From positions 158,179 to 222,178 of the forward strand of contig CAZZFK010000001.1 in the NCBI GenBank assembly GCA_964653455.1: a stretch of 64,000 nucleotides of DNA. Direction: 5' to 3'. The notes below the pieces were generated by a model that was given only the letters and a program-made list of their open reading frames with translations, was not told the origin of the DNA and searched no databases. The position numbers were made by a program, and so were the translations under genes. Positions 13,395 through 60,973 of this stretch are shown here, one piece after another (position 1 is the stretch's first letter; each line of letters opens with the position of its first letter). This stretch comes from an uncultured bacterium (GTDB lineage: Bacteria; Margulisbacteria; Termititenacia; CAZZFK01).

Positions 13395-15521
13395 TCAATG
13401 TACGGGACTGGGGTCAATAGTGCTGTCGGCAGGGTATGTGTTATGGACCCGATATGACGAATACCCCTTGGTCCCTCTCATTTTATTCGCTCGTCGTTCA
13501 TTTTCCAGGATACGGGTAGCTTCTTGAATATCATGTGCAGCATCCTTGAGTACCATCAAGGAATCCTTTTGTATCTGATAGAGCACGTGCCGGGACCTTT
13601 TAAAAAGGGAGGGATATACATGATGCTCGATCGCCCATCGGTTCAGCTGCCTCAGCCGCGCAAGTTCATACTGCTCCCATCGGGCAGGGAAACGGTCCTG
13701 TTCATCCTTCTCGAGCCGACCGCGGACATATCCATACAATTCTGCCGCAAGACGGTCATGCATGACATGTTCTTCCGTTATACCAAGGAGAGAAAAGAGG
13801 TCGTTACGCGCTATCAGTTCATTGAGATTATCCCACGCAGAAAGCCCTGTTCGGGCGGATAATGACGGATACGTCCGCAATAAGAACTCCAATACCTCCT
13901 TAGCGTCCTGATTGCTGATATCCTCAATCCCGTATTTACCCAGGTCCATATCCCACGTCAGGAAATGCGGCCCGAGCCTAAAGGTCCTTTCTTGTTCCTC
14001 GATCCATTTTTTCTGTAAAGCTTGTACGGCCGCATCGATATCTCCGTTACAGGCATCAAATATCCTGCCGTACGTATCCATCGTATTCCTGTCATCGTCG
14101 ATCGAGGCCAGATACCGCAACGCCTCCGTGCGTTCTTGAACATCATGTTGTGCCCCATCACGACCGTCATGCCGAACGGCGAACTTCTTATCCACCTCAG
14201 CCAGAAGATCATCAAGGCTCGCCAACGGGGCATATGTAGGTTCAGGCTTTTTTTCTGACGGACGGTGAACAGGACCATCTTTCGAACTTCCGTCTTTCCG
14301 GTCACCTGAACCCTCTTCCCGAATGACCGCTGCGACACGCATCTTTTTTTTCTGCTCTTCAAGGAGCCTATCCCCTATCTGTTTATGTCTGTCCGATGTT
14401 CTCTGCATGCCGTCCTTGAGCCACTGCCGCACCTCCGCACTGACCGCATCAAAGATACCGCTCGCGGCCATATCCGCGTCGTTCGGCAAGAGATATATCT
14501 GTGTCCCGTTCTGATACCGCAAGAGCTTCTGACCGTTCTCCTGTAACATATGCCGATAGAACAGGACCGAGCGCTCGGTAGTGCCTATATCTTTCGCGAA
14601 TTGGCGCACACACTGGTACATGGTGCGCACCTGACCGCCCATATAACGGCCGCGCAGATATTTATCGAAATCATCAGGATATAATCTGGAGATACTTTCC
14701 GCCCTCTTCAGGTCCTTCATGATCTGCTGCGATATCTTTGCGGGAGCGGACGCATCGAGGTCCAGGCCTTTTGTCGAGAACACTTCTTTTTCCGTATACC
14801 CGCTCTTGGGGTTCTTTTGCAGCCCGAGCTCCAGAACGGACACTAACTTGACCGCATCGCCCACGGATAACGCGAGAGGATCATCAGCCTCTTCCTGCGG
14901 CCACATTTCTTCCAAGCTCTTGGCCTCTTCGGAACGAACGCCCAGTTTTTTAAGCGCATTGGCCTTGCGCTCGTCCTCACAAAATATCAATCTCACGACA
15001 TTCTGCTCTGCAGGATAACGGCATATATCCGACATATGATGTACGAACAAGAACTCAAAATAATACCTGTAGACCCCTGTTACCCCATGGGACTTAAAGA
15101 ACCGTTCTTTATCGGCCGAGAACACATATTCCTCGAACAGTTCTTTCAGGTCCCAGCGAAAAACATCGTCCAGGCAGACCTTCCGTGTCTTTCCCCCGCG
15201 CACTATCACCACCTCATCAAGAGGTGCGTGAGTATGAAATACCGAAGCGAGCAAATCCTTTTCTTTGATGCCTACGGGATGGGGGGACGTTCTGATGTGT
15301 TTCATCAATTCTTCAAAGATCTGTGTGCGCTCTTTTTCTTCCTGTATCTCTTTGAGGTCCAGTTTCTTGACGCCCGCTTTTGTATCCGTAACAAGCGCTC
15401 CGCCGGAAGCCGACCAGTCCAGCAGTTCTTTGCCTTTATCGTCCGATATCATTTTTTTATGCCACATGGCCATACCCCTTCTTCCTATATAGATATCGTA
15501 TTTTTTGGAAAAAACTCCCAT
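13395..15521 (-). CDS. uncharacterised protein, paralog A (708 aa), UBA-like motif
   Basis: Shares with the next gene the N-terminus MG..(D)(I/T)YI.R...M..WH.K..SD, YRYYFEFLFVHH, a GL..D/E..AP.I helix and a Lys/Arg/Pro-rich linker; YGRIFDACNGDIDAAVQAL resembles the UBA / EF-Ts N-terminal fold. Confidence 0.65.
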   Translation of the reverse strand: MGVFSKKYDIYIGRRGMAMWHKKMISDDKGKELLDWSASGGALVTDTKAGVKKLDLKEIQEEKERTQIFEELMKHIRTSPHPVGIKEKDLLASVFHTHAPLDEVVIVRGGKTRKVCLDDVFRWDLKELFEEYVFSADKERFFKSHGVTGVYRYYFEFLFVHHMSDICRYPAEQNVVRLIFCEDERKANALKKLGVRSEEAKSLEEMWPQEEADDPLALSVGDAVKLVSVLELGLQKNPKSGYTEKEVFSTKGLDLDASAPAKISQQIMKDLKRAESISRLYPDDFDKYLRGRYMGGQVRTMYQCVRQFAKDIGTTERSVLFYRHMLQENGQKLLRYQNGTQIYLLPNDADMAASGIFDAVSAEVRQWLKDGMQRTSDRHKQIGDRLLEEQKKKMRVAAVIREEGSGDRKDGSSKDGPVHRPSEKKPEPTYAPLASLDDLLAEVDKKFAVRHDGRDGAQHDVQERTEALRYLASIDDDRNTMDTYGRIFDACNGDIDAAVQALQKKWIEEQERTFRLGPHFLTWDMDLGKYGIEDISNQDAKEVLEFLLRTYPSLSARTGLSAWDNLNELIARNDLFSLLGITEEHVMHDRLAAELYGYVRGRLEKDEQDRFPARWEQYELARLRQLNRWAIEHHVYPSLFKRSRHVLYQIQKDSLMVLKDAAHDIQEATRILENERRANKMRGTKGYSSYRVHNTYPADSTIDPSPVH

Positions 15522-15582
15522 TTTGAGGGGCTCTGGAGGGTGGTGCCCGGTGTGAAAAATACCGAATAATGCCGGACCTTCG

Positions 15583-17424
15583 TCAGCCGAACATATCCTT
15601 CAGTTCCTGGGCATGTTTCTCATTGATCTCAGCGGCTTTACGTAATAATTCTTTCTTGGCGACCTCGAAGTTGCCTCCGTTCTCTTCCAGGACACTTTTA
15701 CATTGGTCCTTGTCAAAACCGGCCATCATCACTTCACGCAACAGGGTCAACTCGCGAACTTCCTTTGAATAGGATCGGAGCAGCTCGGAACGCCAGAGGA
15801 TATCTTCCTCTTTTTCGTTCAACGGGCGGCCAAGCAACAATATCTTTCTCGCTCGGCCGATACTATTGCCTGAACGTTCATACGCAGAGGAGCACTCATC
15901 CCAGGTCTTTTTCGTTTCATAACAAAGGCTGAAGATATCGTCCTTTATTTGCTGCTCAGCAGTGATCGCCGCACGTTTCAGCGCATCGTGCTTCCTATCC
16001 ACCTCTTCACAGATCTGTTCAAAACTCTTCCGGGGAGGGAATTCCACCGGCACATACTGTTTCCTTTGAGGGACTTCCGCTTTAGGCGACGAGACCTTTT
16101 TTGGCGGGATCACAGGGACAGGCCGTGTCTCAGATTCTCGCTTTCCCCGCATTTCCGTCTCGCGTTGTTTTTGCTTTGCTTCTTCAAGAGCGGCCATTTT
16201 ACGCCCCGCCGCCAATATCTCCTCATGTTCTTCATCGTTCTTCAGCTTCAACCAATCGATGACATCCATGATGCGCCGTTGGTTCACATCGTTCTTGTCT
16301 TTCCGCTGACGATGGAGCTCATCTTTCAGCCCGGACAACGCAGTGGGATTGTTCAGGACGATGTACATTTCGCCCCTGTCCTCATATATGAAGAATTTTA
16401 CGCCGTTATTCAAAAGGAGATACTTGACCGCCTCAATGGCTTTGACCGTGCATCCGAGCTCTTTGGCCAACCTCGATTCTTCTCCGCCATAGTCCTGGTC
16501 CAAAAGTTTTTTAAGGTCCTCAAAACGCTGATATTCATACTTGATCTTTTTGCGCTCATGAATGAGTTTACGTATCTGCGGTGCCGTCTCCCTGTTCAAC
16601 CCAAGAGCATTGAGGAGCGTACGCTCCGTATACCCTAACGGGTCCCTTCTGTTGCCTTTGTTCAATAACCCCAGAAGTTCTTCTTCTTTCTCATGAAATA
16701 TCTGGATCGTATCGATATTCTCGTATTCGAACGTATCATAACCGACCCACAGGGATTCCAGTTGCTGTGCGGCAATGGAATTCTTGCCCAATTTTGCTAC
16801 GGCAGCCTCTACCCTGTCCTGCAGGGAAGGAAGAATGAAGATCTCCCCGTTATGAGCATATCTGATGATCTTGAGCGGATGATTGGCGAACAGATAACTG
16901 AAGTAGTACTTATACTGCTCTTTGATGTTCGAATCGGAAAGGAATCGTCCGATATTGTTCACATATCTGCGGGAAAGCTGGACCATATCTTCGACCGAGA
17001 TATCCATTAAGGGTTTTACCTTGAAATCATTTGGCCCTGCGATCACATTATAGGGGACCTGCGGCACCTTGATAGTGAACGCTGCCGGATATCCGAGGAC
17101 CTCCAGCAAGCGTTTTTCCCGCACACCGAACACGTCCTTTTCCGTGCTTAATTCATGTACGATCTTCTTTCTCAGGTCCTCGAGGGCCCTCTCATCTTTC
17201 AATTCAGCGGGCGTTTTTTTAACTTCCTGTTTAACGTCAAAAGTATCATCCGCAGCGAACAACTGCAGGTCCATACGCAGCTCAATACGCTCGCCATTCT
17301 CTCCGACCGCATATACGGGCGTTCTCAGCCACGCAAGACAATCGGATAATAATTTATTATGCCACACGGACATACCTGTGCACCTCTGTATATAGGTATC
17401 GGAACCTCCTGAAGGTCGTCCCAT
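15583..17424 (-). CDS. uncharacterised protein, paralog B (613 aa), C-terminal UBA-like domain
   Basis: Paralogous to 13395..15521 (YKYYFSYLFANHP, LGCTVKAIEAVKYLLLNNG); C-terminal VMMAGFDKDQCKSVLEENGGNFEVAKKELL fits the UBA consensus (MGF ... NG.(V/F)E.A...LL). Confidence 0.65.
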   Translation of the reverse strand: MGRPSGGSDTYIQRCTGMSVWHNKLLSDCLAWLRTPVYAVGENGERIELRMDLQLFAADDTFDVKQEVKKTPAELKDERALEDLRKKIVHELSTEKDVFGVREKRLLEVLGYPAAFTIKVPQVPYNVIAGPNDFKVKPLMDISVEDMVQLSRRYVNNIGRFLSDSNIKEQYKYYFSYLFANHPLKIIRYAHNGEIFILPSLQDRVEAAVAKLGKNSIAAQQLESLWVGYDTFEYENIDTIQIFHEKEEELLGLLNKGNRRDPLGYTERTLLNALGLNRETAPQIRKLIHERKKIKYEYQRFEDLKKLLDQDYGGEESRLAKELGCTVKAIEAVKYLLLNNGVKFFIYEDRGEMYIVLNNPTALSGLKDELHRQRKDKNDVNQRRIMDVIDWLKLKNDEEHEEILAAGRKMAALEEAKQKQRETEMRGKRESETRPVPVIPPKKVSSPKAEVPQRKQYVPVEFPPRKSFEQICEEVDRKHDALKRAAITAEQQIKDDIFSLCYETKKTWDECSSAYERSGNSIGRARKILLLGRPLNEKEEDILWRSELLRSYSKEVRELTLLREVMMAGFDKDQCKSVLEENGGNFEVAKKELLRKAAEINEKHAQELKDMFG

Positions 17425-37949: not shown

Positions 37950-38083
37950 AGGAAAAGTATAGCATCGTAGTAAAGGGGCTGTCCTTGCCTGTACCCCCCT
38001 GAGCTGAATACTGTTTTCTGGGCTAGCATGCGCAAAACAGGTGCCAGACACCAACCAAGCCAAGCCCCACTTCTCTATATCAC

Positions 38084-38545
38084 TCAGTGAATACCCAAAA
38101 CATCACGTAATTTCTCCAATACCTCCCGAGAAACCGAGCTTTGGTCACATGCGAACAAGGACCACAAAAAGAATTTTGCCACATGAAAACCCATAAATAG
38201 ACAGAACAAGGTCATCAGATCAAGATGCATAATATTGAACTGCATCACAACAAGATGACCGAAAATAGCGATCAATAAGAATACATACGCGATCCTATCA
38301 AGATATATCCAGGGGCAATCATTTTGAGGATAGAGGTTCCCGCTCGTCACAGCTGCGTTCCAGAACGCGACAAACACAGCCATAAGGAAAGCCGTGATCG
38401 TTAAAAAACCGATCATACCCAGATAACCACCGTCATTTGGTATTGAATCACTGGACCACCATATCGAAGACCAGAACAGCCAATATGCGGTAGTTGCAAA
38501 TATTTTCCAGAACATATATACACCTCTTTCTTTAGTTTTTCCCAA
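38084..38545 (-). CDS. hypothetical integral membrane protein
   Basis: 153 aa with about four hydrophobic helices, Trp-rich N-terminus; no motif recognised. Confidence 0.5.
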   Translation of the reverse strand: MGKTKERGVYMFWKIFATTAYWLFWSSIWWSSDSIPNDGGYLGMIGFLTITAFLMAVFVAFWNAAVTSGNLYPQNDCPWIYLDRIAYVFLLIAIFGHLVVMQFNIMHLDLMTLFCLFMGFHVAKFFLWSLFACDQSSVSREVLEKLRDVLGIH

Positions 38546-38668
38546 ATACTATAGATACGCCTTTTGCCAAACAGAACACAAAAAGGCCTTGCATAATTGA
38601 TTCATGCATTCCGGGATTTTCCCCCATAAGGACCACCTGTTTCATAGCATTTTCAAGTTTATTCATAT

Positions 38669-38836
38669 TCATTTTCTTCTCCTTTTCTTAATACCCTTTT
38701 TGCTCTGTTCCTCGCGTTCCTGCAACAAACAAAGCAAAAATACAACATACAACACGCCAAACAATGCATACCCATACAGCCGGGAATAGAACACCGTGAC
38801 AAGAAAAACGACCACCCCCGGAATGGCTGCATACAT
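38669..38836 (-). CDS. small hydrophobic protein (55 aa, C-terminal KKRRRK)
   Basis: AGGAGGTG 6 nt upstream of ATG 38836 (MYAAIPGVVVFLVTVFYSRLYGYALFGVLYVVFLLCLLQ...); a second 46-codon ORF starts in an ATGA overlap with its stop; different frame from the Cys-rich 94-aa track ORF. Confidence 0.3.
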   Translation of the reverse strand: MYAAIPGVVVFLVTVFYSRLYGYALFGVLYVVFLLCLLQEREEQSKKGIKKRRRK

Positions 38837-39011
38837 ACATCACCTCCTGCTACTGAATAACAACAAGGCCCCACACAACCATATATAGCAGGTTTACTTG
38901 CCATTTTTTGGCAAGTTTGTTTATTAGTCATTTGACAATACAAATCAGGGAAATATCGGACAATTTATTGCTGAGTAATACTATTTTACTGACAGCCAAA
39001 TACCTTCCGTA

Positions 39012-40766
39012 TCATTCAGTTTCTACTTGTGAATTAAAATTCTTTAGCATATTCTGAACCTGTTCCCAATTACTTTCCGACGCGGTATACCTTTTGTCAT
39101 GAACAATCAGTTCTTCACCATATAATTTCTCAAGTATATACGCAACAGACTTAGTAATAGACCAAGCCAAGACCTCATCAGGCTTTTCTCCCAAACAATA
39201 CTTTTTGACATCCTCTTTTGAAACATTAATTAATATTTTCCCGGTGTAGCTAAGATAGCGGTATTTTTCTTTATCCATTATACAACCCGGAAAATTCGCA
39301 TGCTTCAATGTATTATGAATTTTCCGAACATCGTGCGCATTAGCAAATACCTTTTCGTCCATTCCACTCCACAAGCAACTCTTTTTAAGGCTGTTCAACA
39401 ATAGAAAATATTCACACTCATCCATACTCTCCGTTTTCTTCTCTACCTCTATCTTATCCTTATCCACTATCATAAAACTGTCCTTACCGGAGCTAACCAA
39501 AAGCGATCGATATTTTTTGCGAACAGCCTGCTCGGCCAAGGAACACCCCAGGCTACAAGCAGACTCATATTTCCCAATAAAATAACAAAAATACATTTCA
39601 TCTAACAATTTCCCCAGACGGGGATCTCCAATACTATTATCCGAATCGTCCTTTAATTCATACCTATTCCCATACTTTTCTAATCTCAGAAGACATTCTT
39701 GCTGCTTCTGCTCAGTAAAGAAATGCTGAGATAATTCAGATTCAACTTTGCTCTTTTGATCAAATTGAAGTTCTCTAATTTTTCTAGTATCAGCCAAAGC
39801 TTTTTCTATCTCGCCTCTTTCCCGATACAACTCAGCTCTAGCTTCTATAGCTGCTATAAAATTACCGTTAATCGCTATTGCTTTATTAAAGGCATCAAGC
39901 GCATCCTCAATATTACCAAAACTCTGGTCCTCTAGCCCGATGAAATAATAAGCATATTCATTATCTGGATTGAGCTCCAGAGCTTTCTCATAAGATGGAA
40001 ATCCATGACATTGGCTAGTATCGGAGCAGAAGAATACTATCGCATTCGACAATTCATTCTTATATTCAGGGCAGAGATCAGCCAAATTGTCTATCTGCAG
40101 CTCAAACTCCTCAAATAAAGCACTTATATCGACTGCAAGGTCTATCCAATCAAAAGCATCCATCATCGGAGTTTTAAGCACCTCAATATAATCATCAAGA
40201 GCTTCTTTATGCTTAGCTTGCTTCATCCTTGCATGGCCACGAAAGAAACATATATGACACCTAGGCGATGAATAACCAACCACTTTTAACTCTGAACGCT
40301 CTCTTTTATCCATATAGACAGAACAAGCTTTCTCCAATGCCGGATAGTCTTCCAATGCGAAATTAATCTGACACACGCGCCAATATACTTTCTCATCGAT
40401 ATCATTGCGACCACTCTCAAGAACCTTTTTATAGTCTTTAAGTGCATTTTCATAATCGGCGTTGTTAAAATACAAATCACCTCTATCATTATGAATAATA
40501 TCCTCATAACATCGCTTCAACCCATTTACCTCTGCAGGAAAGCGCTCAACAATATCCAATGCTTTTTTATAATCCTCAAACATTTGCTGAACTGCATCAG
40601 GATGATTTAACTTCTCTGTCGCCCATGCTCGCCACATATACGCTTGCGGAAGATAGATAGAGGTATCATTATTAGCAGTTTTTATTATTTCACTTAATAA
40701 ATCAAAGGCTTCTTGATATTTACCCTTATCATATAATTCAATACCAGCATTAATTTTTTCTTTCAT
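39012..40766 (-). CDS. TPR-repeat protein with uncharacterised C-terminal domain
   Basis: Repeated 34-residue units with the W/LG/Y/A/F/AP TPR pattern (KGKYQEAFDLL, YENALKDYKKVLE, ALDAFNKAIAINGNF); last ~230 aa have no recognised motif; AT-rich gene. Confidence 0.7.
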   Translation of the reverse strand: MKEKINAGIELYDKGKYQEAFDLLSEIIKTANNDTSIYLPQAYMWRAWATEKLNHPDAVQQMFEDYKKALDIVERFPAEVNGLKRCYEDIIHNDRGDLYFNNADYENALKDYKKVLESGRNDIDEKVYWRVCQINFALEDYPALEKACSVYMDKRERSELKVVGYSSPRCHICFFRGHARMKQAKHKEALDDYIEVLKTPMMDAFDWIDLAVDISALFEEFELQIDNLADLCPEYKNELSNAIVFFCSDTSQCHGFPSYEKALELNPDNEYAYYFIGLEDQSFGNIEDALDAFNKAIAINGNFIAAIEARAELYRERGEIEKALADTRKIRELQFDQKSKVESELSQHFFTEQKQQECLLRLEKYGNRYELKDDSDNSIGDPRLGKLLDEMYFCYFIGKYESACSLGCSLAEQAVRKKYRSLLVSSGKDSFMIVDKDKIEVEKKTESMDECEYFLLLNSLKKSCLWSGMDEKVFANAHDVRKIHNTLKHANFPGCIMDKEKYRYLSYTGKILINVSKEDVKKYCLGEKPDEVLAWSITKSVAYILEKLYGEELIVHDKRYTASESNWEQVQNMLKNFNSQVETE

Positions 40767-40809
40767 TATAGAAACCCCTTTTACCTTGTACCTTTCTTAA
40801 AATAACACA

Positions 40810-42237
40810 TCAAGAATTATCTTCATCCTGCCCTTTCTCGCCATATGCATCATAAAAATACCTGAACGCCACCTTCGCATTTGTAGTATCTTTATGATAT
40901 CTATTTGCCATTCTTTGCTTTAATACCTGCAGAATCGTACCGCAGCCCGGCTGATACTTCGACTTGCCGGAAAGCAACTTAATGACCTCTTCCGCGAGAG
41001 CGCTCCTGAGCTCCGTATTCATTTCTTTGCCAGCCCTATTCCCCTCCATCTGCTCTATCACATGATTGATCGTTTTCTCGGGATCCTTTTCATACTCATA
41101 AAAATACTTTTCCGCCTCAACTTCATTACTCCTGATGCTTGTCAGCTGTGCTTCATAATTATCTTTCATCTTGCTCACAACACTAAAGATCCGCTCCGTA
41201 AGCTCCCGGGGAGCATAGGCCGTTACATCCCCGCCCCAACCCAATATCCATTTTTCTAATGCATATTTATCCGCCAAAGTATCCCATTCAAAATCATTAA
41301 AAAAGAACTTTGCTTTTATATTGGAAGGGAGCATCGCAGCTTCTTGTATGACATTCCTGAAAAGTTCTTTTTTCCATATCCCTTTCGAATAAATGGCACT
41401 ATTGGCAAAGGTCTTCATTTCATACAGGTAGGGGGCGATCTTCGGGGATATCCGCACCTCCACAGATCTGCTGCTTTTCCTTTTTTGGGCATTTAAAAAC
41501 CTCTTTAATTCCTTACTCCTTGGTTTAAATTTCTTGTGCAGCTGCCGCATGCTCTTTATTCTGGCCAAAGCTAAAAGAACAAAGCCAGTCCGTGTTTTAT
41601 CCAGGCAATACGCCAATACATACCAGCGATAGTTGTTATACACAAAAACGTATGGCTCGATGACTTTTTCTTCCGCAACGAACTTATTATCCTGGAGTTT
41701 CGTGTACGTATAATATTCAATTTTCAGTGAAGTCTTCGCTTCGATCGCCGCATCAATACGTTCAAATACGTCCGAAAATGCAAAATCACAATAAGGAATA
41801 TGCCCGATAAAATATCTGGCCATAGTCTTCTTTGTATCGAGCTTGTGCTGCCCCATATTCGCCTTAATGATCTTTGCGACGGCAGACTTAAAATGGGTCT
41901 TGAGAGGCGTGCCTTCAAAAGAAGGCAGGAATCTTTCTGCTACAAGTAAAGCTTCTGCTTCCTTAGGAGATAGCGAAAAAGCACCCTTTGCTAAACGAAC
42001 AGGGTTAGTGAAGTAATACGTAGATTTCCCTTCTTTTTCAACCCTGACCATATCTTCTTCCATGAGCTTTTTCAGATTACGGTCTAATGTTCGTTGGGGA
42101 ATATGAAGATTATTCAGCAAATATTGTCGTGATAGTTTGTTCTTGATCAAAAGATCTTTATCTTTATCTAAATACTCTCGCGTTGTCAGCTCAATATAAT
42201 CTGTAAGGTATTTAATAGCTTTCACTTGCTTGCGCAT
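40810..42237 (-). CDS. WYL-domain transcriptional regulator with N-terminal HTH
   Basis: N-terminal winged-helix segment and a central WYL domain (EPYVFVYNNYRWYVLAYCLDKTRTGFVLLALARIKSM); about 230-aa C-terminal extension; AT-rich gene. Confidence 0.7.
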   Translation of the reverse strand: MRKQVKAIKYLTDYIELTTREYLDKDKDLLIKNKLSRQYLLNNLHIPQRTLDRNLKKLMEEDMVRVEKEGKSTYYFTNPVRLAKGAFSLSPKEAEALLVAERFLPSFEGTPLKTHFKSAVAKIIKANMGQHKLDTKKTMARYFIGHIPYCDFAFSDVFERIDAAIEAKTSLKIEYYTYTKLQDNKFVAEEKVIEPYVFVYNNYRWYVLAYCLDKTRTGFVLLALARIKSMRQLHKKFKPRSKELKRFLNAQKRKSSRSVEVRISPKIAPYLYEMKTFANSAIYSKGIWKKELFRNVIQEAAMLPSNIKAKFFFNDFEWDTLADKYALEKWILGWGGDVTAYAPRELTERIFSVVSKMKDNYEAQLTSIRSNEVEAEKYFYEYEKDPEKTINHVIEQMEGNRAGKEMNTELRSALAEEVIKLLSGKSKYQPGCGTILQVLKQRMANRYHKDTTNAKVAFRYFYDAYGEKGQDEDNS

Positions 42238-42454
42238 ATGTTATTTTGACATAGAAGCAATATGATTGCCATATTTTGGCAATAATATATTTGGGTATTA
42301 AAATGCCTGTATTTATTGCTTAAAAAATACCTCCATTACCCCCTGAATAGATATCATTTTTTACTGCCACGCCCAGCAAAACAGGCGCCAGACACCAACT
42401 TGAACAGAAGCATGATAAAATCAGGTCAGGATAGCGTACCGAGGGAGAAAGAGC

Positions 42455-45034
42455 ATGCCCGCATTCGATAAAGCAGCGTCAGGGCTCAAAGGGCTGGACG
42501 AACTCGTCCAGCATATCCGCATCGGCGATAATGTCGTCTGGCAGATAGATACACTGCAGGACTACAAGAAGTTCGTCGCGCCCTTTGTCCGTGAGGCCCT
42601 CGCCAAGAAGATCAAGATCATCTATATCCGTTTCGCGGACCACCCGCCGCTCCTCACCAAGCATAAAGGTCTGAAGATCTTCGACCTGCGCTGCCACAAG
42701 AGCTTTGAAGCGTTCACCGTGAAGGTCCATCAGATCATCAACAAAGAAGGCCGCGAGGTCTTCTACGTGTTCGATTGTCTTTCCGCGCTATTGAAGGCCT
42801 GGGCGACGGACCTGATGATAGGTAATTTTTTCATGGTCACCTGTCCGCTCCTCTTTGAACTGGATACTATCGCCTACTTCGGCATATACCGGCAGAACCA
42901 TTCGGCCAAGACCATCGCCCGTATCAGGGATACTACCCAGCTCCTGTTCGACATCTACTCGCTGAACAAGGACCTGTACATACACCCGCTAAAGGTCTGG
43001 AGAAGATATTCCTCCACGATGTTCTTGCCGCATCTGGTGCAGGGTGAAGATTTCAAGCCGGTCACCGACAGCGGGAGGGCTACCAGGATCCTTTCACATA
43101 TCTACCGTCAGGGGAACCGCCCCACCCGGGCCAAAGTTGATTTCTGGGATAAACTGCTCACAGAAGCCGAGAAACTGGCCCGCCCCAAAGCAGCCCCCCA
43201 GAGCAAAACAAAAATGTTCAAAAGACTGTGCGAATTGATGCTGGGGCGGGAGACCAAGATACTGAAACTGATCCAGGCACATCTCACACTGGAGGACCTA
43301 GTGGAGGTCATGCATCGGCTCGTCGGCTCAGGTTATATCGGAGGGAAGGCCGTCGGCATGCTGGTCTCCCGCAAGATCCTGATGAACGACAAAAGCTTCG
43401 CCTGGGGCGACCTTCTGGAAGACCACGATTCTTTCTATATCGGCTCGGACGTGTTCTACACCTATATCGTACAGAACGGCCTCTGGAAATCCTGGCTGAA
43501 GCACAAGAGCAACACATCCGACCTTACTATCGCACATGAACTGAAGGAAAAAATGCTGCATGGACAGTTCCCGGAAGAGATCATGGAGAAGTTCCAGGAC
43601 CTCGTCGACTATTTCGGTCAGGCGCCGATCATCCTCCGCTCAAGCAGCCTTTTGGAGGATAGCTACGGCAATGCTTTCGCCGGGAAGTACGAGAGCATCT
43701 TCATCGTCAATCAAGGCACGCCTGAGGGACGTCTCCTGGTTTTCACGGAAAGCATCAGAAAGATCTTCGCCAGCACCATGAACGACGATGCCCTGGCCTA
43801 TCGTCTGCAGCGCGGTCTGGCGGACAAGGAAGAACAGATGGCGTTGCTCGTGCAGCGCGTCTCGGGAGCGCACAAACAGAAATATTTCTTCCCGGACCTC
43901 GCGGGAGTTGGGCTCTCCTATAATACGTTCCTGTGGCAGGAAGGTATGGACCCTCAGGCCGGGATGCTGCGTCTCGTACTGGGACTGGGGACCCGCGCGG
44001 TCAACCGCGTCGAGGATGATTACCCGCGGCTCGTGGCGCTCGACCAACCGCTGCTCAAGCCGCATGCCAGCAAGGACGATACCCGCAAGTACTCGCAGCA
44101 TAACGTGGACCTATTGAACAAGAAACATAACACCTTGCAGACCCTGCCGCTGGACGAACTGGTGGAGGAAAAGACGGACCTGAAGCTGGAAAGGCTCGCT
44201 GAAAAAGACCATGAAATGATCGCCTACCGGCAGCAATACGCTTCGGACAGAAAAGACCTCTGGCTGGTGACCTTCGACGAGTTCCTGTCGACCACATCCT
44301 TCGCCCCGAACATGCAGCGTATGCTCAAAACCATCGAGAAGGCCTATCAATTCCCCGTGGACATAGAGTTCACCGGGAACTTCACCGAAGAAGGCGAACT
44401 GAAGATCAACTTGGTGCAATGCCGCCCGTTCCATGCGACGGCGCTCGGCAGCCGTGTGGCGTTGCCTGAACACATGGATGACGAACGAACGTTCTTCCGT
44501 TCTGTCGGCTTCTTTATCGGCGGGAACATCGACGAGACGCTCTCGCAGGTCATATACATCGATCCGGAAGCCTACAGCCGGCTGAAAGAACAGGAGAAAT
44601 ACGATATCGCCCGGGTGATCGGACGCCTCAATCGCGAAAAGGCAGCAGGGCCAGACCAACGCACCATACTGATCGGACCGGGACGCTGGGGGGCCAGCAT
44701 GCCGGCCATGGGAGTGCCGGTGAGCTTTTCCGAGATAAATAATTTCAAGGCCATCGTTGAAACTTCGTACCCCTTAGGACACCTACAGCCGGAACTTTCA
44801 CTCGGCTCGCATTTTTTCCAGGACTTGATCGAGATGGATATCTGTTATGTGGCGCTCTTCCTGGAAAAAGAGAACGTGTCATTGCGCTCCGAGCTTTTGA
44901 ACTCCCTGCCCAACCTGTTGACCGAATTCCTTCCGGAATATGCCAAGTACAGCGATGTCATAAAGGTCTGCGCAATGAACGTACGTCTTATCTCGGACAT
45001 CATCACACAAAAGATAGTCTGTTTTTCAGAATGA
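42455..45034 (+). CDS. PEP-utilising-enzyme N-terminal (PPDK_N, ATP-grasp-like) domain protein
   Basis: GSGYIGGKAVGMLVS and ILRSSSLLEDSYGNAFAGKYESIF match the PPDK_N nucleotide-binding motifs (GGK...; RSS..ED...FAG); no phospho-His swivel motif seen; 859 aa. Confidence 0.65.
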   Translation: MPAFDKAASGLKGLDELVQHIRIGDNVVWQIDTLQDYKKFVAPFVREALAKKIKIIYIRFADHPPLLTKHKGLKIFDLRCHKSFEAFTVKVHQIINKEGREVFYVFDCLSALLKAWATDLMIGNFFMVTCPLLFELDTIAYFGIYRQNHSAKTIARIRDTTQLLFDIYSLNKDLYIHPLKVWRRYSSTMFLPHLVQGEDFKPVTDSGRATRILSHIYRQGNRPTRAKVDFWDKLLTEAEKLARPKAAPQSKTKMFKRLCELMLGRETKILKLIQAHLTLEDLVEVMHRLVGSGYIGGKAVGMLVSRKILMNDKSFAWGDLLEDHDSFYIGSDVFYTYIVQNGLWKSWLKHKSNTSDLTIAHELKEKMLHGQFPEEIMEKFQDLVDYFGQAPIILRSSSLLEDSYGNAFAGKYESIFIVNQGTPEGRLLVFTESIRKIFASTMNDDALAYRLQRGLADKEEQMALLVQRVSGAHKQKYFFPDLAGVGLSYNTFLWQEGMDPQAGMLRLVLGLGTRAVNRVEDDYPRLVALDQPLLKPHASKDDTRKYSQHNVDLLNKKHNTLQTLPLDELVEEKTDLKLERLAEKDHEMIAYRQQYASDRKDLWLVTFDEFLSTTSFAPNMQRMLKTIEKAYQFPVDIEFTGNFTEEGELKINLVQCRPFHATALGSRVALPEHMDDERTFFRSVGFFIGGNIDETLSQVIYIDPEAYSRLKEQEKYDIARVIGRLNREKAAGPDQRTILIGPGRWGASMPAMGVPVSFSEINNFKAIVETSYPLGHLQPELSLGSHFFQDLIEMDICYVALFLEKENVSLRSELLNSLPNLLTEFLPEYAKYSDVIKVCAMNVRLISDIITQKIVCFSE

Positions 45035-51704: not shown

Positions 51705-52067
51705 GTGTTCAACAAGATCATCATGGACGGAGAACTGTTCACCATTTCTCAGGATGAAATGGACTCCCTGTTCCTGACCGACAGTACGACTGACCGGGCC
51801 GCACCCGTATATGGCAAGATCGCGCGGCTCCTGAAAGAAGCCCGGGGATTCGATACCCTGAGCGTCGAAGAGATATGGATAGCTCTCCTCCCGCTCCTTT
51901 TACAGGGCCCCTCACCGAACGCAGAATGTCCGACAGCACAGGAAAAGATACTGACGCTCATTGAACAAGGGGCCTTCGACCGGATCCCGGAGGACGTCAG
52001 TATCGAGCTTTTGGCCGACCTGAGCGGCGCACTGGCGAAAAAGTACATGCGGGATAGTGTTCCTTAG
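51705..52067 (+). CDS. hypothetical protein (120 aa)
   Basis: GTG start with AAGGAG 8 nt upstream; no motif recognised. Confidence 0.45.
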   Translation: MFNKIIMDGELFTISQDEMDSLFLTDSTTDRAAPVYGKIARLLKEARGFDTLSVEEIWIALLPLLLQGPSPNAECPTAQEKILTLIEQGAFDRIPEDVSIELLADLSGALAKKYMRDSVP

Positions 52068-52102
52068 CTCATCTGCGAAAGCTCGACCCCGGACAGCTGG
52101 TT

Positions 52103-53977
52103 CTATTTTTTATTTCGTTTCAGCGGGATCAGGGATAAGAAAGGCCCGACCATAAATGAAACAGAAGCAACAATGAATATCGGAGCAAAAGGAAGCATGA
52201 ACGATATAGAGAACAGAACCCCGCCAAAGATCAGTTCTTTATAATGCTTTTTTACCACATCAATGAACGGATTTTTTGTTTGTATCTTACCCTTTGGAGT
52301 AACGTGAAATATCGTATCTGAAGAAAACCCCTCAAAAACACCTTTCGCAATAGACAGTCCTGCACTGATAAAACCAAGGAACGCAGGGATTATGAATACA
52401 ATACTTTGAAATGCCTGCTTGATCTTTTTACTCATTACAAGATTTATAAAATCCATGCCTATTATACCAAGAAAAGCATGCCCAAAAGGCCTACTATATT
52501 GATAGATAGAATTGACCAATGAAAAGTCAGCATGAGATTGTAGTCCAATGATGCCAGTAACACTTAAGATGAGCGGGGCAATCGCAAACATATAGGCAGA
52601 GAGCGGATAATATGAAAACCGATAACACATGTCCGCTTTTTCATTCCAAGGAATATGCTTTGCATGAACAAAAGATGGCATTATCCTTCGAAGGGATTCG
52701 ACCCCTCCTTTAGCCCAACGTTTTTGCTGTACTTTAAAACGATCAAGATCCTCCGGTGAATGATCGACCACATGTACATAAGAGATCCGTTTACCTTTAT
52801 CCCAATAAGAGTGTTCCGCCCGCAACGATAGTCCCGTTGCCCAATCCTCCCCAACAAAATCTTCTTTCCATCCTCCAACGTCTTCAAAAGCGGCCTTTTG
52901 ATACAAAATAGCATAACCTCCTGAAGTTGCATGACCTATCCTTTCAACAGTATGCGTCAATTTTGACCTTGCACGATTTAATGCCGCAATAGGTTGATTG
53001 AATAAATTGTCATCACCCTTATCATCCACATCATAAACCAAGAACGGAAGTTTCTGATTATCCCTGAACTCCGGAACTGACTTTTTCAAGAGATCAGGCG
53101 CAAACTCTATATCACAATCGATCTGAAGAAATAGATTACCCTTCGGCCGATAAAAAACATTATCCGCATAAGATCGTAGTCCCAAGCTTATGTTCAAATT
53201 CCTTGCCTTACCACCCTCTTTGCCGTCACGATGAATAAAGGTAATACCATATTCAGTACAATAGGCCTCTAGTTCCGGCTTCCGAACACCATTAGAAAGA
53301 ACAACAATATCAAGCTTATCTTTCGGGTAATCCACCTCCAAAGCACTCCTGAGGGATGTACTCTTCAATAGCTCTAAAGGTTCATTATATGTAGGAATGG
53401 TTATTGTCACATGCGGCAGGTCTTTTTCTTGCATCGGGAGCGGCTCACATTCAGGACCTCTGAATAGCCCGACCATATTTGCAACAATACTCGTACTAAA
53501 GAATGGTATCGCAGCAAATAGATAAAAACTAGAGACTACCATGCTTGTAATGCCTGCCGATATTTCCGAAAGTGAGAACATATTCTTTATAAGCGGCGCA
53601 ACGGAATAAATATAGTACGCACTGGCCGCTCCATAGGTCAGTATTATCGATGACCATGCCTTTTTTTCCGTGCTTTCGAACATGGCCCTGTAGCAATGTT
53701 CAAAAACACTTTTTGATAGTTCTTTGACCATCAACTTCGCATTATGCATTGACCGAGAGATCGGATTTAGATCTATCTGAGGGAAAAGGGAAAAATCGTT
53801 CTGAAGCTGCATGCCATCACCGCTAAAAGCCAGGTTCTGTTTGAAAAAGATATTATCAATAGATGAAATGACCGCATCTGTATAGGGTCTTACCTGAACA
53901 GGGCTGGCATCCTTCTTTAAAAAGGATATATCTTTTACAGGATCATCGAACCCCATTATCTTTGTATGCCTGAACAT
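52103..53977 (-). CDS. family 2 processive glycosyltransferase (cellulose/chitin/hyaluronan synthase-like), membrane-bound
   Basis: GT2 motifs DCD (LQIDCDIEF), GED (FVGEDWATG) and Q..RW (VQQKRWAKGG) with N- and C-terminal TM helices; gene is AT-rich. Confidence 0.7.
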   Translation of the reverse strand: MFRHTKIMGFDDPVKDISFLKKDASPVQVRPYTDAVISSIDNIFFKQNLAFSGDGMQLQNDFSLFPQIDLNPISRSMHNAKLMVKELSKSVFEHCYRAMFESTEKKAWSSIILTYGAASAYYIYSVAPLIKNMFSLSEISAGITSMVVSSFYLFAAIPFFSTSIVANMVGLFRGPECEPLPMQEKDLPHVTITIPTYNEPLELLKSTSLRSALEVDYPKDKLDIVVLSNGVRKPELEAYCTEYGITFIHRDGKEGGKARNLNISLGLRSYADNVFYRPKGNLFLQIDCDIEFAPDLLKKSVPEFRDNQKLPFLVYDVDDKGDDNLFNQPIAALNRARSKLTHTVERIGHATSGGYAILYQKAAFEDVGGWKEDFVGEDWATGLSLRAEHSYWDKGKRISYVHVVDHSPEDLDRFKVQQKRWAKGGVESLRRIMPSFVHAKHIPWNEKADMCYRFSYYPLSAYMFAIAPLILSVTGIIGLQSHADFSLVNSIYQYSRPFGHAFLGIIGMDFINLVMSKKIKQAFQSIVFIIPAFLGFISAGLSIAKGVFEGFSSDTIFHVTPKGKIQTKNPFIDVVKKHYKELIFGGVLFSISFMLPFAPIFIVASVSFMVGPFLSLIPLKRNKK

Positions 53978-54121
53978 AGTTCACACCTTATCTAAGAACG
54001 CCAAGCGGGTTCCTTCATAATACATACCCCATGTACTGCCATTTTATACATACCTGTATCCACCCCTGATTTATTGATATTTATCAAATACAAAATGACC
54101 ACCTATTGCTAGGCTACCGCA

Positions 54122-59194: not shown

Positions 59195-60973
59195 CTAGCG
59201 CGATTGACGCCGCATGTTGTCGATACCTTGATCGAGCGGCGAATCGTCATGATCATCCGCCCAGATATCGCAGAATTCAAGGGTGGAGCTGATCGGCGGC
59301 GCGTTCGGAGGGGTGACCTTGATGCGCAACGGTAACAATACCGCATCACCGATGACGATCAATTCTCCGATGCCCAATATCGGCAGTGATTCCACAAGTC
59401 CGGACATACCGTCCGGCATGAGCTTCTTCACTATCTCCTGGTCCATCGAATTGGTCAAACGCAAGGTCATGATGTTGCCGCATTGGCTCAAGATGCCCGG
59501 ATTCACGTCAGCCGGACGCTGACTGACCACCATCAGGGCGACCCCGTATTTCCGGCCTTCCTTGGCGATACGTTGAAAATTAAAGAGCGTATTCCGCTGC
59601 ATGGCGTTCGCGATCTCCGTCGGCGGCAGGTACAGATGGGCCTCATCGCAGACCATGACCACCGGATGACGGTCCGTCGGCTCGTTCCAGAACTGCACCA
59701 GGAACAGGAACCGGCCGATGGTCGAGATGATGACCGGGAGCATTTCGCTCGGCACCATGGAAAAGTCGATTATCTTGATGCCGGGGTTCGTCTTGTCCAA
59801 CTTACCCGTACCCAGCAATATTTTCACGAACTTATTGATATAGTCGAAATCAAAAACATATTTCGGTCCTTCAAAAAGGAAGTTATAGCGTTTATCAGCC
59901 TTCTTTGCTTCGATACGCGGGATGAACCGGTCGAACTTGCCGTAGTACGGCCCGGCCGTGACATTGCCCAGACCGATGCCGGGAACGAGCTCTTTATTGA
60001 TGCGCTTCAGTTTTGTCAGGACCTCGTTCATGTCGTACGGTATCGGACTGTCAATGGTAAAGGATTTGATATAGCGCTCCTGCTTATGTTCTTTCAAGTA
60101 CTGCAGTTTCTCGTTCTTGATGATCTCATGCAGGACCAGGGCGTGCGTCGGAGCGTCCGGATCATGATTATCCACAAGCACCGTCAATAATTCCTCATAG
60201 CTCAGGAACCAGGCAGGCATGAAGAGAGATTCATCCGTGGGATTCGCGGAATCCGCAGGCGTGGCGATATGCAGCGACTTCGCGTAATGCAGGCCTTTAT
60301 ATTCACCGTGGATATCGAAAATGACCACATTGGCGCTGTTGAGCTCGGCGACCTTCTCGATGATCGTGGACACGGTCCAGGATTTTCCGCAGCCGGAACT
60401 GCCCAGGAGCGCCACATGCCGCTGAAAAAGCTTGTTGCCGTTCACGTACGCGACCACGTCCTTGTCCAGGACATAGTTGCCAAAAGGCAGATCGGCGTTC
60501 GTGCGGCTCTCCGAGATACCGCCCATAAAGAACGCCAGATCGGGTCCTTCGAGCGCAAAGCAGGGAGCTTCGACATCAGCGACGTTAATGACAGCACGCG
60601 TAAAGCTCCCCTTATGCGTACGCTTATTGATCATGAACGTGCCGATGAGACCTATCTCGGCGATATGTTTTTTCTCCAGGTCCGTCGCCCCGTCCCCTTC
60701 CAGCGTGTTCTCGATACGTCCGATCAGGAACTCATGCTCACGTACCCGGACCGCACACAACCGGTCGACGCGGGCTATTTTCAGTTTTTCAATGGATGCG
60801 ACACGCATACGCAGACGCGTACTGGTCACTTCAAAGATGGTCCCTATGAATTCTTCTTCCGAAAAATCAAATACAGGCGCAGTATCTGCGTTCTCAAGCC
60901 GTGCGATCTCCTTCGCACTGGCCGAGGTCTCCTGCCCTGTTCGCTGTGTGGCTTTATCCTTCATGTGGCCCAT
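59195..60973 (-). CDS. HerA-like (DUF87, FtsK/HerA superfamily) ATPase
   Basis: Walker A GSSGCGKSWTV, Walker B VVMVCDEAHLYLP and the family-typical LMVVSQRPADVNPGILSQCGN; start may be the internal ATG at 60964, which has better spacing to GAGGGGG. Confidence 0.7.
   Translation of the reverse strand: MGHMKDKATQRTGQETSASAKEIARLENADTAPVFDFSEEEFIGTIFEVTSTRLRMRVASIEKLKIARVDRLCAVRVREHEFLIGRIENTLEGDGATDLEKKHIAEIGLIGTFMINKRTHKGSFTRAVINVADVEAPCFALEGPDLAFFMGGISESRTNADLPFGNYVLDKDVVAYVNGNKLFQRHVALLGSSGCGKSWTVSTIIEKVAELNSANVVIFDIHGEYKGLHYAKSLHIATPADSANPTDESLFMPAWFLSYEELLTVLVDNHDPDAPTHALVLHEIIKNEKLQYLKEHKQERYIKSFTIDSPIPYDMNEVLTKLKRINKELVPGIGLGNVTAGPYYGKFDRFIPRIEAKKADKRYNFLFEGPKYVFDFDYINKFVKILLGTGKLDKTNPGIKIIDFSMVPSEMLPVIISTIGRFLFLVQFWNEPTDRHPVVMVCDEAHLYLPPTEIANAMQRNTLFNFQRIAKEGRKYGVALMVVSQRPADVNPGILSQCGNIMTLRLTNSMDQEIVKKLMPDGMSGLVESLPILGIGELIVIGDAVLLPLRIKVTPPNAPPISSTLEFCDIWADDHDDSPLDQGIDNMRRQSR

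What the first reader, a model, noticed from the sequence alone, without database searches (positions are those of the whole stretch)
38550..42454. AT-rich island carrying a WYL-domain regulator and a TPR protein with an unassigned C-terminal domain
From about 38.55 to 42.45 kb the DNA is visibly AT-richer than the flanks (by eye, not computed), which suggests horizontal acquisition. The island holds a WYL regulator (40810..42237) immediately upstream of, and co-directional with, a 584-aa TPR protein (39012..40766; 43-bp gap), plus two tiny hydrophobic ORFs at its edge. WYL regulators are known to control defence and DNA-damage loci, and TPR scaffolds fused to unknown effector domains recur in defence islands. 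The TPR C-terminal ~230 aa and the WYL C-terminal extension have no motif I can assign.
Basis: partly seen in the sequence, partly recalled or inferred. Interest (0 to 1): 0.6.

Follow-up and report, generated by a model that had tools for sequence, protein, structure and literature searches.

The report
Foreign island: WYL regulator, TPR–HEPN-like protein
A 4.3-kb stretch of clearly foreign DNA, bracketed by a 24-base direct repeat, carries a WYL-type regulator, a TPR protein ending in a rare domain that looks like a HEPN RNase, and three small membrane proteins; it is a plausible but unproven phage-defence cassette.

Summary
GC is 0.39 in the island against 0.51 elsewhere (z = -6.8). The tetranucleotide signature correlates 0.57 with the rest of the window, against 0.92 for other segments. 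A 24-nt direct repeat (23/24 identical) at 38032-38055 and 42376-42399 brackets the low-GC segment exactly. The island therefore starts near 38056, not 38550, and holds five genes.

- **Regulator.** The WYL protein has HTH, WYL and WCX domains, like BrxR and CapW, plus about 115 unassigned C-terminal residues.
- **Candidate operator.** A palindrome, TTGCCA-N5-TGGCAA, occurs twice in 64 kb. One copy lies upstream of the WYL gene and one upstream of the membrane-protein operon.
- **TPR C-terminal domain.** It is nearly an orphan: one small related family among 1.84 billion representative proteins. Several weak but concordant lines point to a DUF4145/LA2681-like HEPN domain: invariant E-x3-R and R-x3-N-x3-H motifs, sub-threshold Pfam hits in the relatives, and HEPN proteins among the non-significant fold matches. 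A relative lies next to an AIPR abortive-infection gene. TPR–HEPN fusions are already described.

No known defence-system model matches. No integrase, no empty site and no relatives in phages or plasmids were found. Verdict: a real horizontally acquired cassette and probably a new variant of a WYL-regulated conflict system; its function is inferred, not shown.

The parts
38032..38055 (+). Left copy of the 24-nt direct repeat, GCAAAACAGGTGCCAGACACCAAC. It lies 83 nt upstream of the PFK start and 29 nt past the stop of the last island gene.
   Evidence: it coincides with the GC step
38084..38515 (-). 143-aa multi-pass membrane protein (3-4 hydrophobic segments). AGAGGTG Shine-Dalgarno sequence. 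Last gene of the small-protein operon.
   Evidence: no family hit; singleton cluster
38532..38672 (-). 46-aa protein with one C-terminal hydrophobic segment. Its start overlaps the stop of the upstream gene by 4 nt (ATGA).
38669..38836 (-). 55-aa protein with two hydrophobic segments and a strongly basic tail (KKGIKKRRRK), which is holin-like in form only. AGGAGGTG Shine-Dalgarno sequence.
   Evidence: phrog_13092 only at E 0.0059
38896..38916 (.). Box 2: perfect 8-5-8 palindrome ACTTGCCATTTTTTGGCAAGT, 60-80 nt upstream of the small-protein operon. Candidate WYL operator.
   Evidence: (D6)
39015..39764 (-). C-terminal domain of the TPR protein (aa 335-584), HEPN-like. It contains E412-x3-R416 (39519-39533) and R481-x3-N485-x3-H489 (39300-39326).
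39765..40766 (-). TPR array of the 584-aa protein (aa 1-334). The whole gene is 39012..40766.
40810..42237 (-). wHTH-WYL-WCX regulator, 475 aa. HTH is at about aa 29-83 (41989-42153), WYL at aa 156-231 (41545-41772) and WCX at aa 322-357 (41167-41274). The unassigned extension is aa 361-475 (40813-41157).
42265..42283 (.). Box 1: perfect 7-5-7 palindrome ATTGCCATATTTTGGCAAT, 28-46 nt upstream of the WYL start codon. Candidate autoregulatory operator.
   Evidence: (D6)
42376..42399 (+). Right copy of the 24-nt direct repeat, GCAAAACAGGCGCCAGACACCAAC. It lies 56 nt upstream of the PPDK_N-domain gene.

Best explanation
This is a 4.34-kb horizontally acquired cassette. It was inserted into the divergent PFK / PPDK_N-gene intergenic region of an uncultured bacterium, and the insertion left a 24-nt direct repeat at both junctions.

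The cassette has two transcription units on the minus strand:
1. A wHTH-WYL-WCX regulator followed by a TPR protein whose C-terminal domain is a divergent DUF4145/LA2681-like HEPN domain.
2. Three small membrane proteins.

Proposed mechanism (inferred):
- A dimer of the WYL regulator binds the TTGCCA-N5-TGGCAA palindrome in front of each unit and keeps both units low.
- A nucleic-acid-type ligand bound by the WYL domain relieves this. CapW and DriD, for example, respond to the ssDNA produced during infection or DNA damage.
- The TPR array acts as a protein-binding sensor or oligomerisation scaffold.
- The HEPN-like domain, using R481 and H489 with E412, cleaves RNA and arrests growth of the infected cell.
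- The membrane trio is either a second, membrane-directed effector or an immunity or anchoring component.

Shown here: the island, the repeats, the domain content of the regulator, the two palindromes, and the rarity and conserved residues of the C-terminal domain.

Inferred: operator function, the HEPN fold and RNase activity, a defence role, and the way the island was inserted.
For: Island.
- Composition and signature outlier.
- The 24-nt direct repeat, 23/24 identical, sits exactly at the two GC steps and occurs nowhere else in the window with up to 3 mismatches.
- All five genes lie inside the repeats.
- The flanks are housekeeping genes.

Regulator.
- Pfam WYL at E 1.3e-10 and WCX above its cut-off.
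- PADLOC WYL models at E 7.9e-21 and 2.2e-19.
- HTH hits.
- The closest solved structure is BrxR.

Operator.
- The palindrome occurs exactly twice in 64 kb, both times in an island promoter region; 0.12 matches are expected by chance.
- BrxR binds inverted repeats with a 5-bp spacer at two boxes, one before brxR and one before the next operon (PMC9122601).

HEPN reading.
- The only relatives among 1.84e9 representative proteins are the P0001 family (E 8.8e-6; pairwise E 5e-13).
- E..S.CSL...L.EQ and HD.RKI.N...H...P are invariant across the family.
- P0001 and P0003 give sub-threshold Pfam hits to DUF4145 (E 0.009-0.075) and HEPN_LA2681 (E 0.021), exactly on the motif.
- RAZR's DUF4145 HEPN RNase uses R146 and H154, the same R-x7-H spacing (PMC13017515).
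- The LA2681 HEPN family is described as fused to TPR.

Defence context. P0001 lies beside an AIPR (Abi) gene and an HsdM fragment.
Against: - The window protein itself gives no Pfam, PADLOC, NCBIfam or PDB sequence hit in its C-terminal domain.
- At the position of the canonical Rx4H arginine, which is RNYCVH in P0001, the window protein has His (HNTLKH).
- No known defence system matches.
- No relatives of the pair exist with which to test co-occurrence.
- There is no integrase or tRNA in 64 kb, and no empty site was found.
- Operator function is untested, and no convincing sigma-70 promoter was placed.
Confidence: 0.5

Rival explanations
1. The island is foreign, but it is not an RNase-based defence system. 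The TPR protein is a non-catalytic scaffold or adaptor for the three membrane proteins, in an envelope or stress function. The WYL protein is a DNA-damage or stress regulator of the DriD/SiwR type that controls them.
For: The TPR C-terminal domain has no significant family or fold match. Distant WYL homologues sit in housekeeping contexts next to RecQ and a TRAM methyltransferase. WYL regulators of non-defence DNA-damage regulons are known.
Against: The residues conserved across the tiny family are polar, catalytic-type residues (E, R, N, H) in the HEPN arrangement. The only relative lies next to Abi and R-M genes. The composition and the repeats mark the island as accessory DNA.
Confidence: 0.2
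2. It is a selfish addiction or toxin-antitoxin-like module, or a leftover of a larger mobile element such as a decayed prophage or ICE. In that reading the small membrane proteins are holin-type lysis remnants and the WYL protein is the element's repressor.
For: The 55-aa protein has two hydrophobic segments and a highly basic tail, as holins do, and a weak phrog_13092 hit at E 0.0059. Direct repeats flank the island as att sites would. No integrase is present, which fits decay.
Against: There are no phage or plasmid relatives of any island gene or of the island DNA. All five ORFs are intact, with good ribosome-binding sites and coupled starts. No endolysin or structural gene remnants are present.
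Confidence: 0.15
3. The 24-nt repeat is not an insertion scar. It is a host regulatory or terminator-like element that happens to sit upstream of both PFK and the PPDK_N-domain gene. The AT-rich genes arrived by some other route.
For: Each copy contains a short GC hairpin followed by TGTTTTG on the minus strand. Both flanking genes are carbon-metabolism genes that could share a regulator.
Against: 23/24 identity over 24 nt is more than a typical regulatory site keeps. The copies are direct, and so lie in opposite orientation relative to the two divergent genes. There is no further copy in 64 kb. Both copies coincide with the compositional steps.
Confidence: 0.1

Closest known systems
BrxR / CapW family of wHTH-WYL-WCX regulators of defence islands (PMC9122601, PMC11662680)
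   Same: Same three-domain order. The regulator is the first gene of the unit it precedes. A palindromic box with a 5-bp spacer lies upstream of its own gene, and a second box lies before the next operon, as with the two R-boxes of pEFER.
   Different: Sequence similarity is very low: the best PDB hit is BrxR at E 0.016, and the best database homologues are 23-24% identical. There is an extra C-terminal region of about 115 aa with no relative. The half-sites are 6-8 bp rather than 11 bp. The cargo matches no catalogued defence system.
[quoted passage not shown] 2013, PMC3710099; Pfam PF18733)
   Same: The architecture, a TPR array plus a HEPN-like domain, is the same. The relative P0003 gives a sub-threshold PF18733 hit over the motif region.
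   Different: The window protein does not match PF18733 at all. The motif spacing is R-x7-H rather than Rx4-6H.
DUF4145 HEPN RNases, e.g. RAZR (PMC13017515)
   Same: The R...H pair has the same spacing: R146/H154 in RAZR and R481/H489 here. The relatives give sub-threshold DUF4145 hits on exactly this segment. An effector fused to a non-catalytic sensing or assembly domain is also shared.
   Different: RAZR has an N-terminal zinc finger, not TPRs. No model-level match was obtained for the window protein, and no activity data exist.
The P0001 / P0003 / P0004 family (221-aa standalone metagenomic proteins)
   Same: These are the only detectable homologues of the C-terminal domain (32% identity over 126 aa). 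P0001 lies beside AIPR and HsdM_N genes.
   Different: They are standalone proteins with no TPR and no WYL neighbour. They have RNYCVH where the window protein has HNTLKH.

Membership tests
wHTH-WYL-WCX transcription regulators (BrxR/CapW/YafY-like) | WYL domain | tested here: met
   PF13280 at E 1.3e-10, 41.5 bits against a cut-off of 21.8; PADLOC WYL models at E 7.9e-21 and 2.2e-19
wHTH-WYL-WCX transcription regulators (BrxR/CapW/YafY-like) | WCX domain after the WYL domain | tested here: met
   PF25583 scores 24.2 bits against a cut-off of 23.9, at aa 322-357. This is marginal, but the position is right.
wHTH-WYL-WCX transcription regulators (BrxR/CapW/YafY-like) | N-terminal winged HTH | tested here: inconclusive
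   Only sub-threshold hits at aa 29-83: TrmB E 0.0077 and ArsR/SmtB NF033788 E 2.4e-5, below its cut-off.
wHTH-WYL-WCX transcription regulators (BrxR/CapW/YafY-like) | Inverted-repeat operator upstream of its own gene | tested here: met
   A perfect 7-5-7 palindrome lies 28-46 nt upstream of the start. A second copy lies before the next operon. There are 2 matches in 64 kb against 0.12 expected. Binding itself was not tested.
wHTH-WYL-WCX transcription regulators (BrxR/CapW/YafY-like) | Ligand (ssDNA or nucleotide) sensing by the WYL domain | not testable with these tools
   Needs binding assays.
HEPN superfamily | Four-helix up-down fold with an insert between helices 2 and 3 | tested here: inconclusive
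HEPN superfamily | Canonical Rx4-6H motif with a polar residue after the R | tested here: not met
   The window protein has HNTLKH where its relatives have RNYCVH. No R...H pair with a 4-6 residue spacing occurs in the C-terminal domain.
HEPN superfamily | DUF4145-type R-x7-H pair (catalytic R146/H154 in RAZR) | tested here: met
   R481 and H489 are invariant in all four family members.
HEPN superfamily | Conserved acidic residue, Ex3[KR], in helix 2 | tested here: met
   E412-QAV-R416. The E is invariant in the family and lies in the second long predicted helix.
HEPN superfamily | Match to a curated HEPN family model | tested here: not met
   There is none for the window protein. Only sub-threshold DUF4145 and HEPN_LA2681 hits were found, and only for the relatives P0001 and P0003.
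HEPN superfamily | RNase activity | not testable with these tools
   Needs biochemistry.
Catalogued anti-phage defence systems (PADLOC v2) | Match of the effector proteins to a system model | tested here: not met
   No hit for the TPR protein, its C-terminal domain or the three membrane proteins.
Genomic island / integrative element | Deviant composition with sharp borders | tested here: met
Genomic island / integrative element | Flanking direct repeats | tested here: met
   24 nt, 23/24 identical, 4344 nt apart
Genomic island / integrative element | Own integrase or recombinase, or insertion at a tRNA gene | tested here: not met
   No tRNA gene in the window. No recombinase domain in any large ORF of the 64 kb.
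Genomic island / integrative element | Empty site in related genomes | tested here: inconclusive
   The closest genome shares only 64% identity for the neighbouring protein and has no synteny. All exact-protein contigs carry the island.

The most novel reading that the evidence does not exclude
An undescribed, self-contained conflict system in three layers:
- a WYL sensor-repressor with a novel C-terminal module;
- a TPR-gated RNase from an almost orphan HEPN lineage;
- a co-regulated trio of small membrane proteins that acts as a second, membrane-directed killing or immunity arm.

It would be carried on an integrase-less cassette that moves by a trans-acting recombinase recognising the 24-nt repeat.
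Probability: 0.15. Interest if true: 0.65.

Novelty: new variant of a known kind. Interest (0 to 1): 0.4.

Why it matters
If the reading is right, this is a compact five-gene cassette of 4.3 kb that could be cloned. It would join a WYL sensor-regulator to an RNase from a HEPN lineage so rare that it has four known members among billions of proteins, plus a membrane module of unknown role. That would add a new effector lineage and a new cargo type to the set of BrxR/CapW-controlled systems. It would also give a clean case, with two operators and two operons, for studying how WYL regulators gate toxic effectors.

The integrase-less, repeat-bounded form also bears on how small defence cassettes move between genomes. 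If the reading is wrong, this is simply a small orphan genomic island, which is common.

Tried and rejected
- **AlphaFold2 of the full TPR protein without an alignment.** pLDDT was 38.8, so the model is unusable.
- **AlphaFold2 of the C-terminal domain with the 4-sequence alignment.** pLDDT was 44.9. I used it only as a weak lead.
- **Fold searches.** The afdb50 library was unavailable. The BFVD viral fold search gave nothing.
- **Word-indexed homologue search with the C-terminal domain.** It found nothing, not even the protein itself. The reason is that its 90% cluster is represented by an unrelated 52-aa peptide.
- **P0002.** This 2145-aa repeat protein was rejected as a spurious repeat-driven hit.
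- **Profile and fragment searches.** Searches against PDB sequences and against Pfam gave no direct HEPN hit for the window protein.
- **tblastn and blastn against phages and plasmids, and viral-contig scans.** There were no relatives of the TPR C-terminal domain, the 143-aa membrane protein or the island DNA in any of these searches. The WYL protein had no relative in phages or viral contigs, and only 21-27% identical generic YafY/WYL regulators on plasmids.
- **Scan of metagenome contigs for the 24-mer core.** All four hits are coincidental coding matches, for example the EtfB N-terminus MKILVCVKQVPDTN. There were none in viral contigs.
- **Empty-site search.** Relatives of the PPDK_N protein show no synteny. 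Exact-protein look-ups returned only island-carrying contigs from one set of samples.
- **Contexts of the distant WYL homologues.** They are housekeeping contexts and uninformative.
- **Rfam.** Nothing was found.
- **Palindromes as terminators.** Rejected. Neither copy is followed by a T-run on the coding (minus) strand, and box 1 has no upstream minus-strand gene.
- **dif/Xer-type site.** I considered this for the repeat. GC skew does not switch in the window, and by my own reading the sequence does not resemble dif. It was not tested further.
- **Sigma-70 promoter placement.** Inconclusive, with fewer matches than in shuffles.


Full report
**1. Observation**

The low-GC stretch is real and strong.
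- In 1-kb windows, GC falls from 0.54 (37-38 kb) to 0.41, 0.37, 0.38, 0.42 and 0.45 over 38-43 kb, then returns to 0.55.
- At 300-nt resolution the steps lie near 38.0 kb and 42.35 kb.
- The segment between the repeats described in section 2 has GC 0.390 against 0.514 for the rest. That is 6.8 standard deviations below all other 4.3-kb windows, whose lowest value is 0.464.
- Its strand-symmetric tetranucleotide signature correlates only 0.57 with the rest of the window. Other segments give 0.92 +/- 0.018, with a minimum of 0.855.
- Third-position GC is 0.34 (TPR gene), 0.45 (WYL gene), and 0.49, 0.38 and 0.52 (the three small genes). The flanking genes give 0.64 (PFK) and 0.72 (PPDK_N-domain gene).

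**2.

- A 24-nt direct repeat, GCAAAACAGG[T/C]GCCAGACACCAAC, lies at 38032-38055 and 42376-42399. The copies are 4344 nt apart and 23/24 identical.
- With up to three mismatches there are only these two matches in the window, and none in 100 shuffles.
- The copies coincide with the two compositional steps and enclose all five island genes. The last gene stops 29 nt inside the left copy. The WYL start codon is 139 nt inside the right copy.
- Removing one copy and the DNA between them would leave a divergent PFK / PPDK_N-gene intergenic region of about 160 bp.
- The island is therefore about 38056-42399.

Other evidence on how the island arrived:
- There is no tRNA gene in the window.
- No recombinase domain was found in any of the large ORFs I scanned. 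These are housekeeping genes: EF-P, RF3, PGK, PFK, a U32 peptidase, an ABC-2 transporter, SufBD, T2SS/T4P genes, HydF and CorA.
- The insertion mechanism is therefore unknown. A recombinase acting in trans or a repeat-mediated event is my inference.
- Each repeat copy contains a short hairpin plus TGTTTTG on the minus strand. I kept a rival in which the repeat is a host regulatory element, at low weight.

**3. Provenance and relatives**

- The host is an uncultured bacterium. The best relative of the neighbouring 859-aa PPDK_N-domain protein among 185,579 species genomes is 64% identical. The others are about 52% identical and come from Planctomycetota, Omnitrophota and similar MAGs. None of these genomes keeps PFK next to that gene in this arrangement.
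- The identical locus occurs on contigs from three runs of one study, SRR10083293, SRR10083294 and SRR10083296, and on a 525,596-bp NCBI contig.
- Every contig that carries the exact PFK or PPDK_N protein also carries the island. No empty site is available for comparison.
- The island DNA has no match in plasmids.
- The TPR C-terminal domain and the 143-aa membrane protein have no relatives in the phage, plasmid or viral-contig searches made with them. The WYL protein has none in phages or viral contigs, and only distant generic YafY-family matches on plasmids.

**4. The regulator**

The 475-aa protein has, in order:
- sub-threshold HTH hits at aa 29-83;
- a WYL domain at aa 156-231, E 1.3e-10;
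- a WCX domain at aa 322-357, 24.2 bits against a cut-off of 23.9.

It also matches the PADLOC WYL models at E 7.9e-21 and 2.2e-19. This is the wHTH-WYL-WCX architecture of BrxR, CapW and DriD.

It is very divergent.
- The best solved relative is BrxR, at E 0.016 over 44 residues.
- The best database relatives are 23-24% identical.
- Plasmid YafY-family genes are 21-27% identical, and none extends past about aa 382.
- Residues 361-475 have no family hit and remain unassigned.
- The distant homologues sit in housekeeping neighbourhoods and say nothing about this system.

Start codon. The NCBI gene call of 413 aa would remove most of the HTH, so the longer ORF is the better call. It could be 475 aa from the ATG or 471 aa from the GTG.

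**5. Candidate operator**

- A palindrome with core TTGCCA-N5-TGGCAA occurs exactly twice in the 64 kb, allowing up to one mismatch. The chance expectation is 0.12, and 1 of 100 shuffles reached two matches.
- Box 1, ATTGCCATATTTTGGCAAT at 42265-42283, lies 28-46 nt upstream of the WYL start.
- Box 2, ACTTGCCATTTTTTGGCAAGT at 38896-38916, lies 60-80 nt upstream of the first small gene, in the 175-nt gap after the TPR gene.
- Neither box is followed by a T-run on the coding strand, so a terminator role is unlikely.
- The layout parallels BrxR of pEFER. BrxR binds inverted repeats with a 5-bp spacer at two R-boxes, one before brxR and one before the next operon (PMC9122601).
- I therefore propose that the WYL protein autoregulates its own operon and co-regulates the membrane-protein operon. 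This is an inference, and binding was not tested.

**6. The TPR protein and its C-terminal domain**

Residues 1-334 are TPRs (TPR_1 at E 4.7e-18).

Residues 335-584 have no hit in Pfam, NCBIfam, PADLOC or PHROGs, or in PDB sequences.

An exhaustive phmmer search of 1.84 billion representative proteins found only two hits.
- P0001, 221 aa, at E 8.8e-6.
- P0002, a repeat protein that I regard as spurious.

P0001 has just two close relatives, P0003 and P0004. Pairwise, the window domain and P0001 are 32% identical over 126 residues, at E 5e-13.

The four-sequence alignment has two invariant blocks.
- E-S-x-C-S-L-x3-L-x-E-Q. The second E is E412 in the window protein, where it is followed by QAV-R416.
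- H-D-x-R-K-I-x-N-x3-H-x3-P, which contains R481, N485 and H489.

These blocks fit what is described for HEPN domains: a catalytic R...H pair at the end of helix 3, a conserved acidic residue in helix 2 that is often Ex3[KR], and a variable insert between helices 2 and 3 (PMC3710099). The order of predicted helices in the model agrees with that layout.

On motif spacing:
- The spacing is R-x7-H. This is the spacing of the experimentally required R146/H154 of RAZR, whose DUF4145 domain is a divergent HEPN RNase (PMC13017515).
- The relatives also have the canonical RN-x3-H motif (RNYCVH). The window protein has His at that Arg position (HNTLKH).
- The canonical-motif test is therefore not met, while the DUF4145-type pair is conserved.

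Further weak lines:
- P0001 and P0003 give sub-threshold Pfam hits to DUF4145 (E 0.009-0.075) and HEPN_LA2681 (E 0.021), exactly over this segment. The window protein does not.
- The low-confidence model (pLDDT 44.9, pTM 0.44) retrieves Csx1 first (E 0.074, probability 0.90). AF0298, TM0613, ST0689, AbiV and Csm6 follow in Foldseek.

Each line is weak, but they agree. [quoted passage not shown] I put the HEPN reading at about 0.6.

Context of the relatives. P0001 lies beside an AIPR (abortive-infection) gene and an HsdM fragment on a contig of about 30-35% GC. P0003 lies beside an ankyrin-repeat protein.

**7. The small-protein operon**

| Gene | Size | Features |
|---|---|---|
| 38669..38836 | 55 aa | two hydrophobic segments, basic tail |
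| 38532..38672 | 46 aa | one hydrophobic segment |
| 38084..38515 | 143 aa | three to four hydrophobic segments |

These genes follow box 2. They have strong Shine-Dalgarno sequences, an ATGA start/stop overlap and a 16-nt gap. None has a family hit or a relative. Their role is open: a second effector, an immunity factor or an anchor.

**8. Mechanism and rivals**

The best-supported reading is a horizontally acquired, WYL-regulated conflict cassette whose effector is a TPR-gated HEPN-like RNase, with a co-regulated membrane module. The steps are given under the best explanation, and only the anatomy is shown. The rivals are:
- a non-catalytic TPR scaffold in a stress or envelope regulon (0.2);
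- an addiction module or a decayed mobile-element remnant with holin-like genes (0.15);
- the repeat as a host regulatory element rather than an insertion scar (0.1).

**9. Comparison with what is known, and novelty**

[quoted passage not shown] The effector works like, but cannot yet be filed as, a DUF4145/LA2681-type HEPN protein. The model-match test and the canonical-motif test were not met, while the R-x7-H and Ex3R tests were. No catalogued defence system matches.

I rate it a new variant of a known kind: a WYL-controlled defence-type cassette with a TPR-HEPN effector. It is moderately interesting for four reasons. The effector lineage is almost orphan. The cassette is compact. It is bounded by repeats. 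It has a clear two-operator layout. Its function is entirely inferred, however, and orphan islands of this size are common.

Noticed in passing
window 52000-54000 (ORF 52103..53977, minus strand): A second AT-rich patch (GC 0.41-0.42 against about 0.52) coincides with a 624-aa family-2 glycosyltransferase. It is probably another acquired or surface-polysaccharide gene.
   Followed up: partly
window 10388-17424, minus strand: Three consecutive large ORFs (952, 708 and 613 aa) have no Pfam hit at E <= 1e-5. The 15-19 kb region has somewhat lower GC, 0.46-0.49.
   Followed up: no
window 38034-38055 and 42378-42399; L089 1521-1552: The core of the direct repeat would encode KQ[V/A]PDTN. It matches, by coincidence, the 5' end of an EtfB-like gene (MKILVCVKQVPDTN) in a metagenome contig. 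The other three metagenome hits are one unrelated coding sequence.
   Followed up: yes
window 40810-42237: Public gene calls disagree on the WYL start. NCBI has 413 aa, which would delete most of the HTH. The Logan call has 471 aa (GTG at codon 5), and the longest ORF is 475 aa.
   Followed up: partly
protein collection (clusters of the TPR protein): The 584-aa TPR protein sits in a 90% cluster whose representative is an unrelated 52-aa peptide (P0010). This explains why the word-indexed search did not return the protein itself.
   Followed up: partly
window 42246-42304, plus strand: Two sigma-70-like hexamer pairs (TTGACA-18-CATATT and TTGGCA-17-TAAAAT) overlap box 1 and point towards the PPDK_N-domain gene. 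If they are real, the island's regulator could also affect that host gene. The scan as a whole found fewer sites than in shuffles.
   Followed up: no
L082 647-3357: The only relative of the TPR C-terminal domain (P0001) lies next to a 583-aa AIPR (PF10592) abortive-infection protein and an HsdM_N fragment on a contig of about 30-35% GC. That is a defence-island context.
   Followed up: partly
window 59195-60973, minus strand: A HerA-like helicase (DUF87 plus HerA_C). Its neighbours were not examined, and HerA-type ATPases occur both in repair systems and in defence systems.
   Followed up: no
window 42455-45034: The 859-aa PPDK_N-domain protein next to the island is conserved at about 51-56% identity across many Planctomycetota, Omnitrophota, Margulisiibacteriota and related MAGs. 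It is a widespread protein family, here without the usual PEP-utilising C-terminal domains in Pfam.
   Followed up: no
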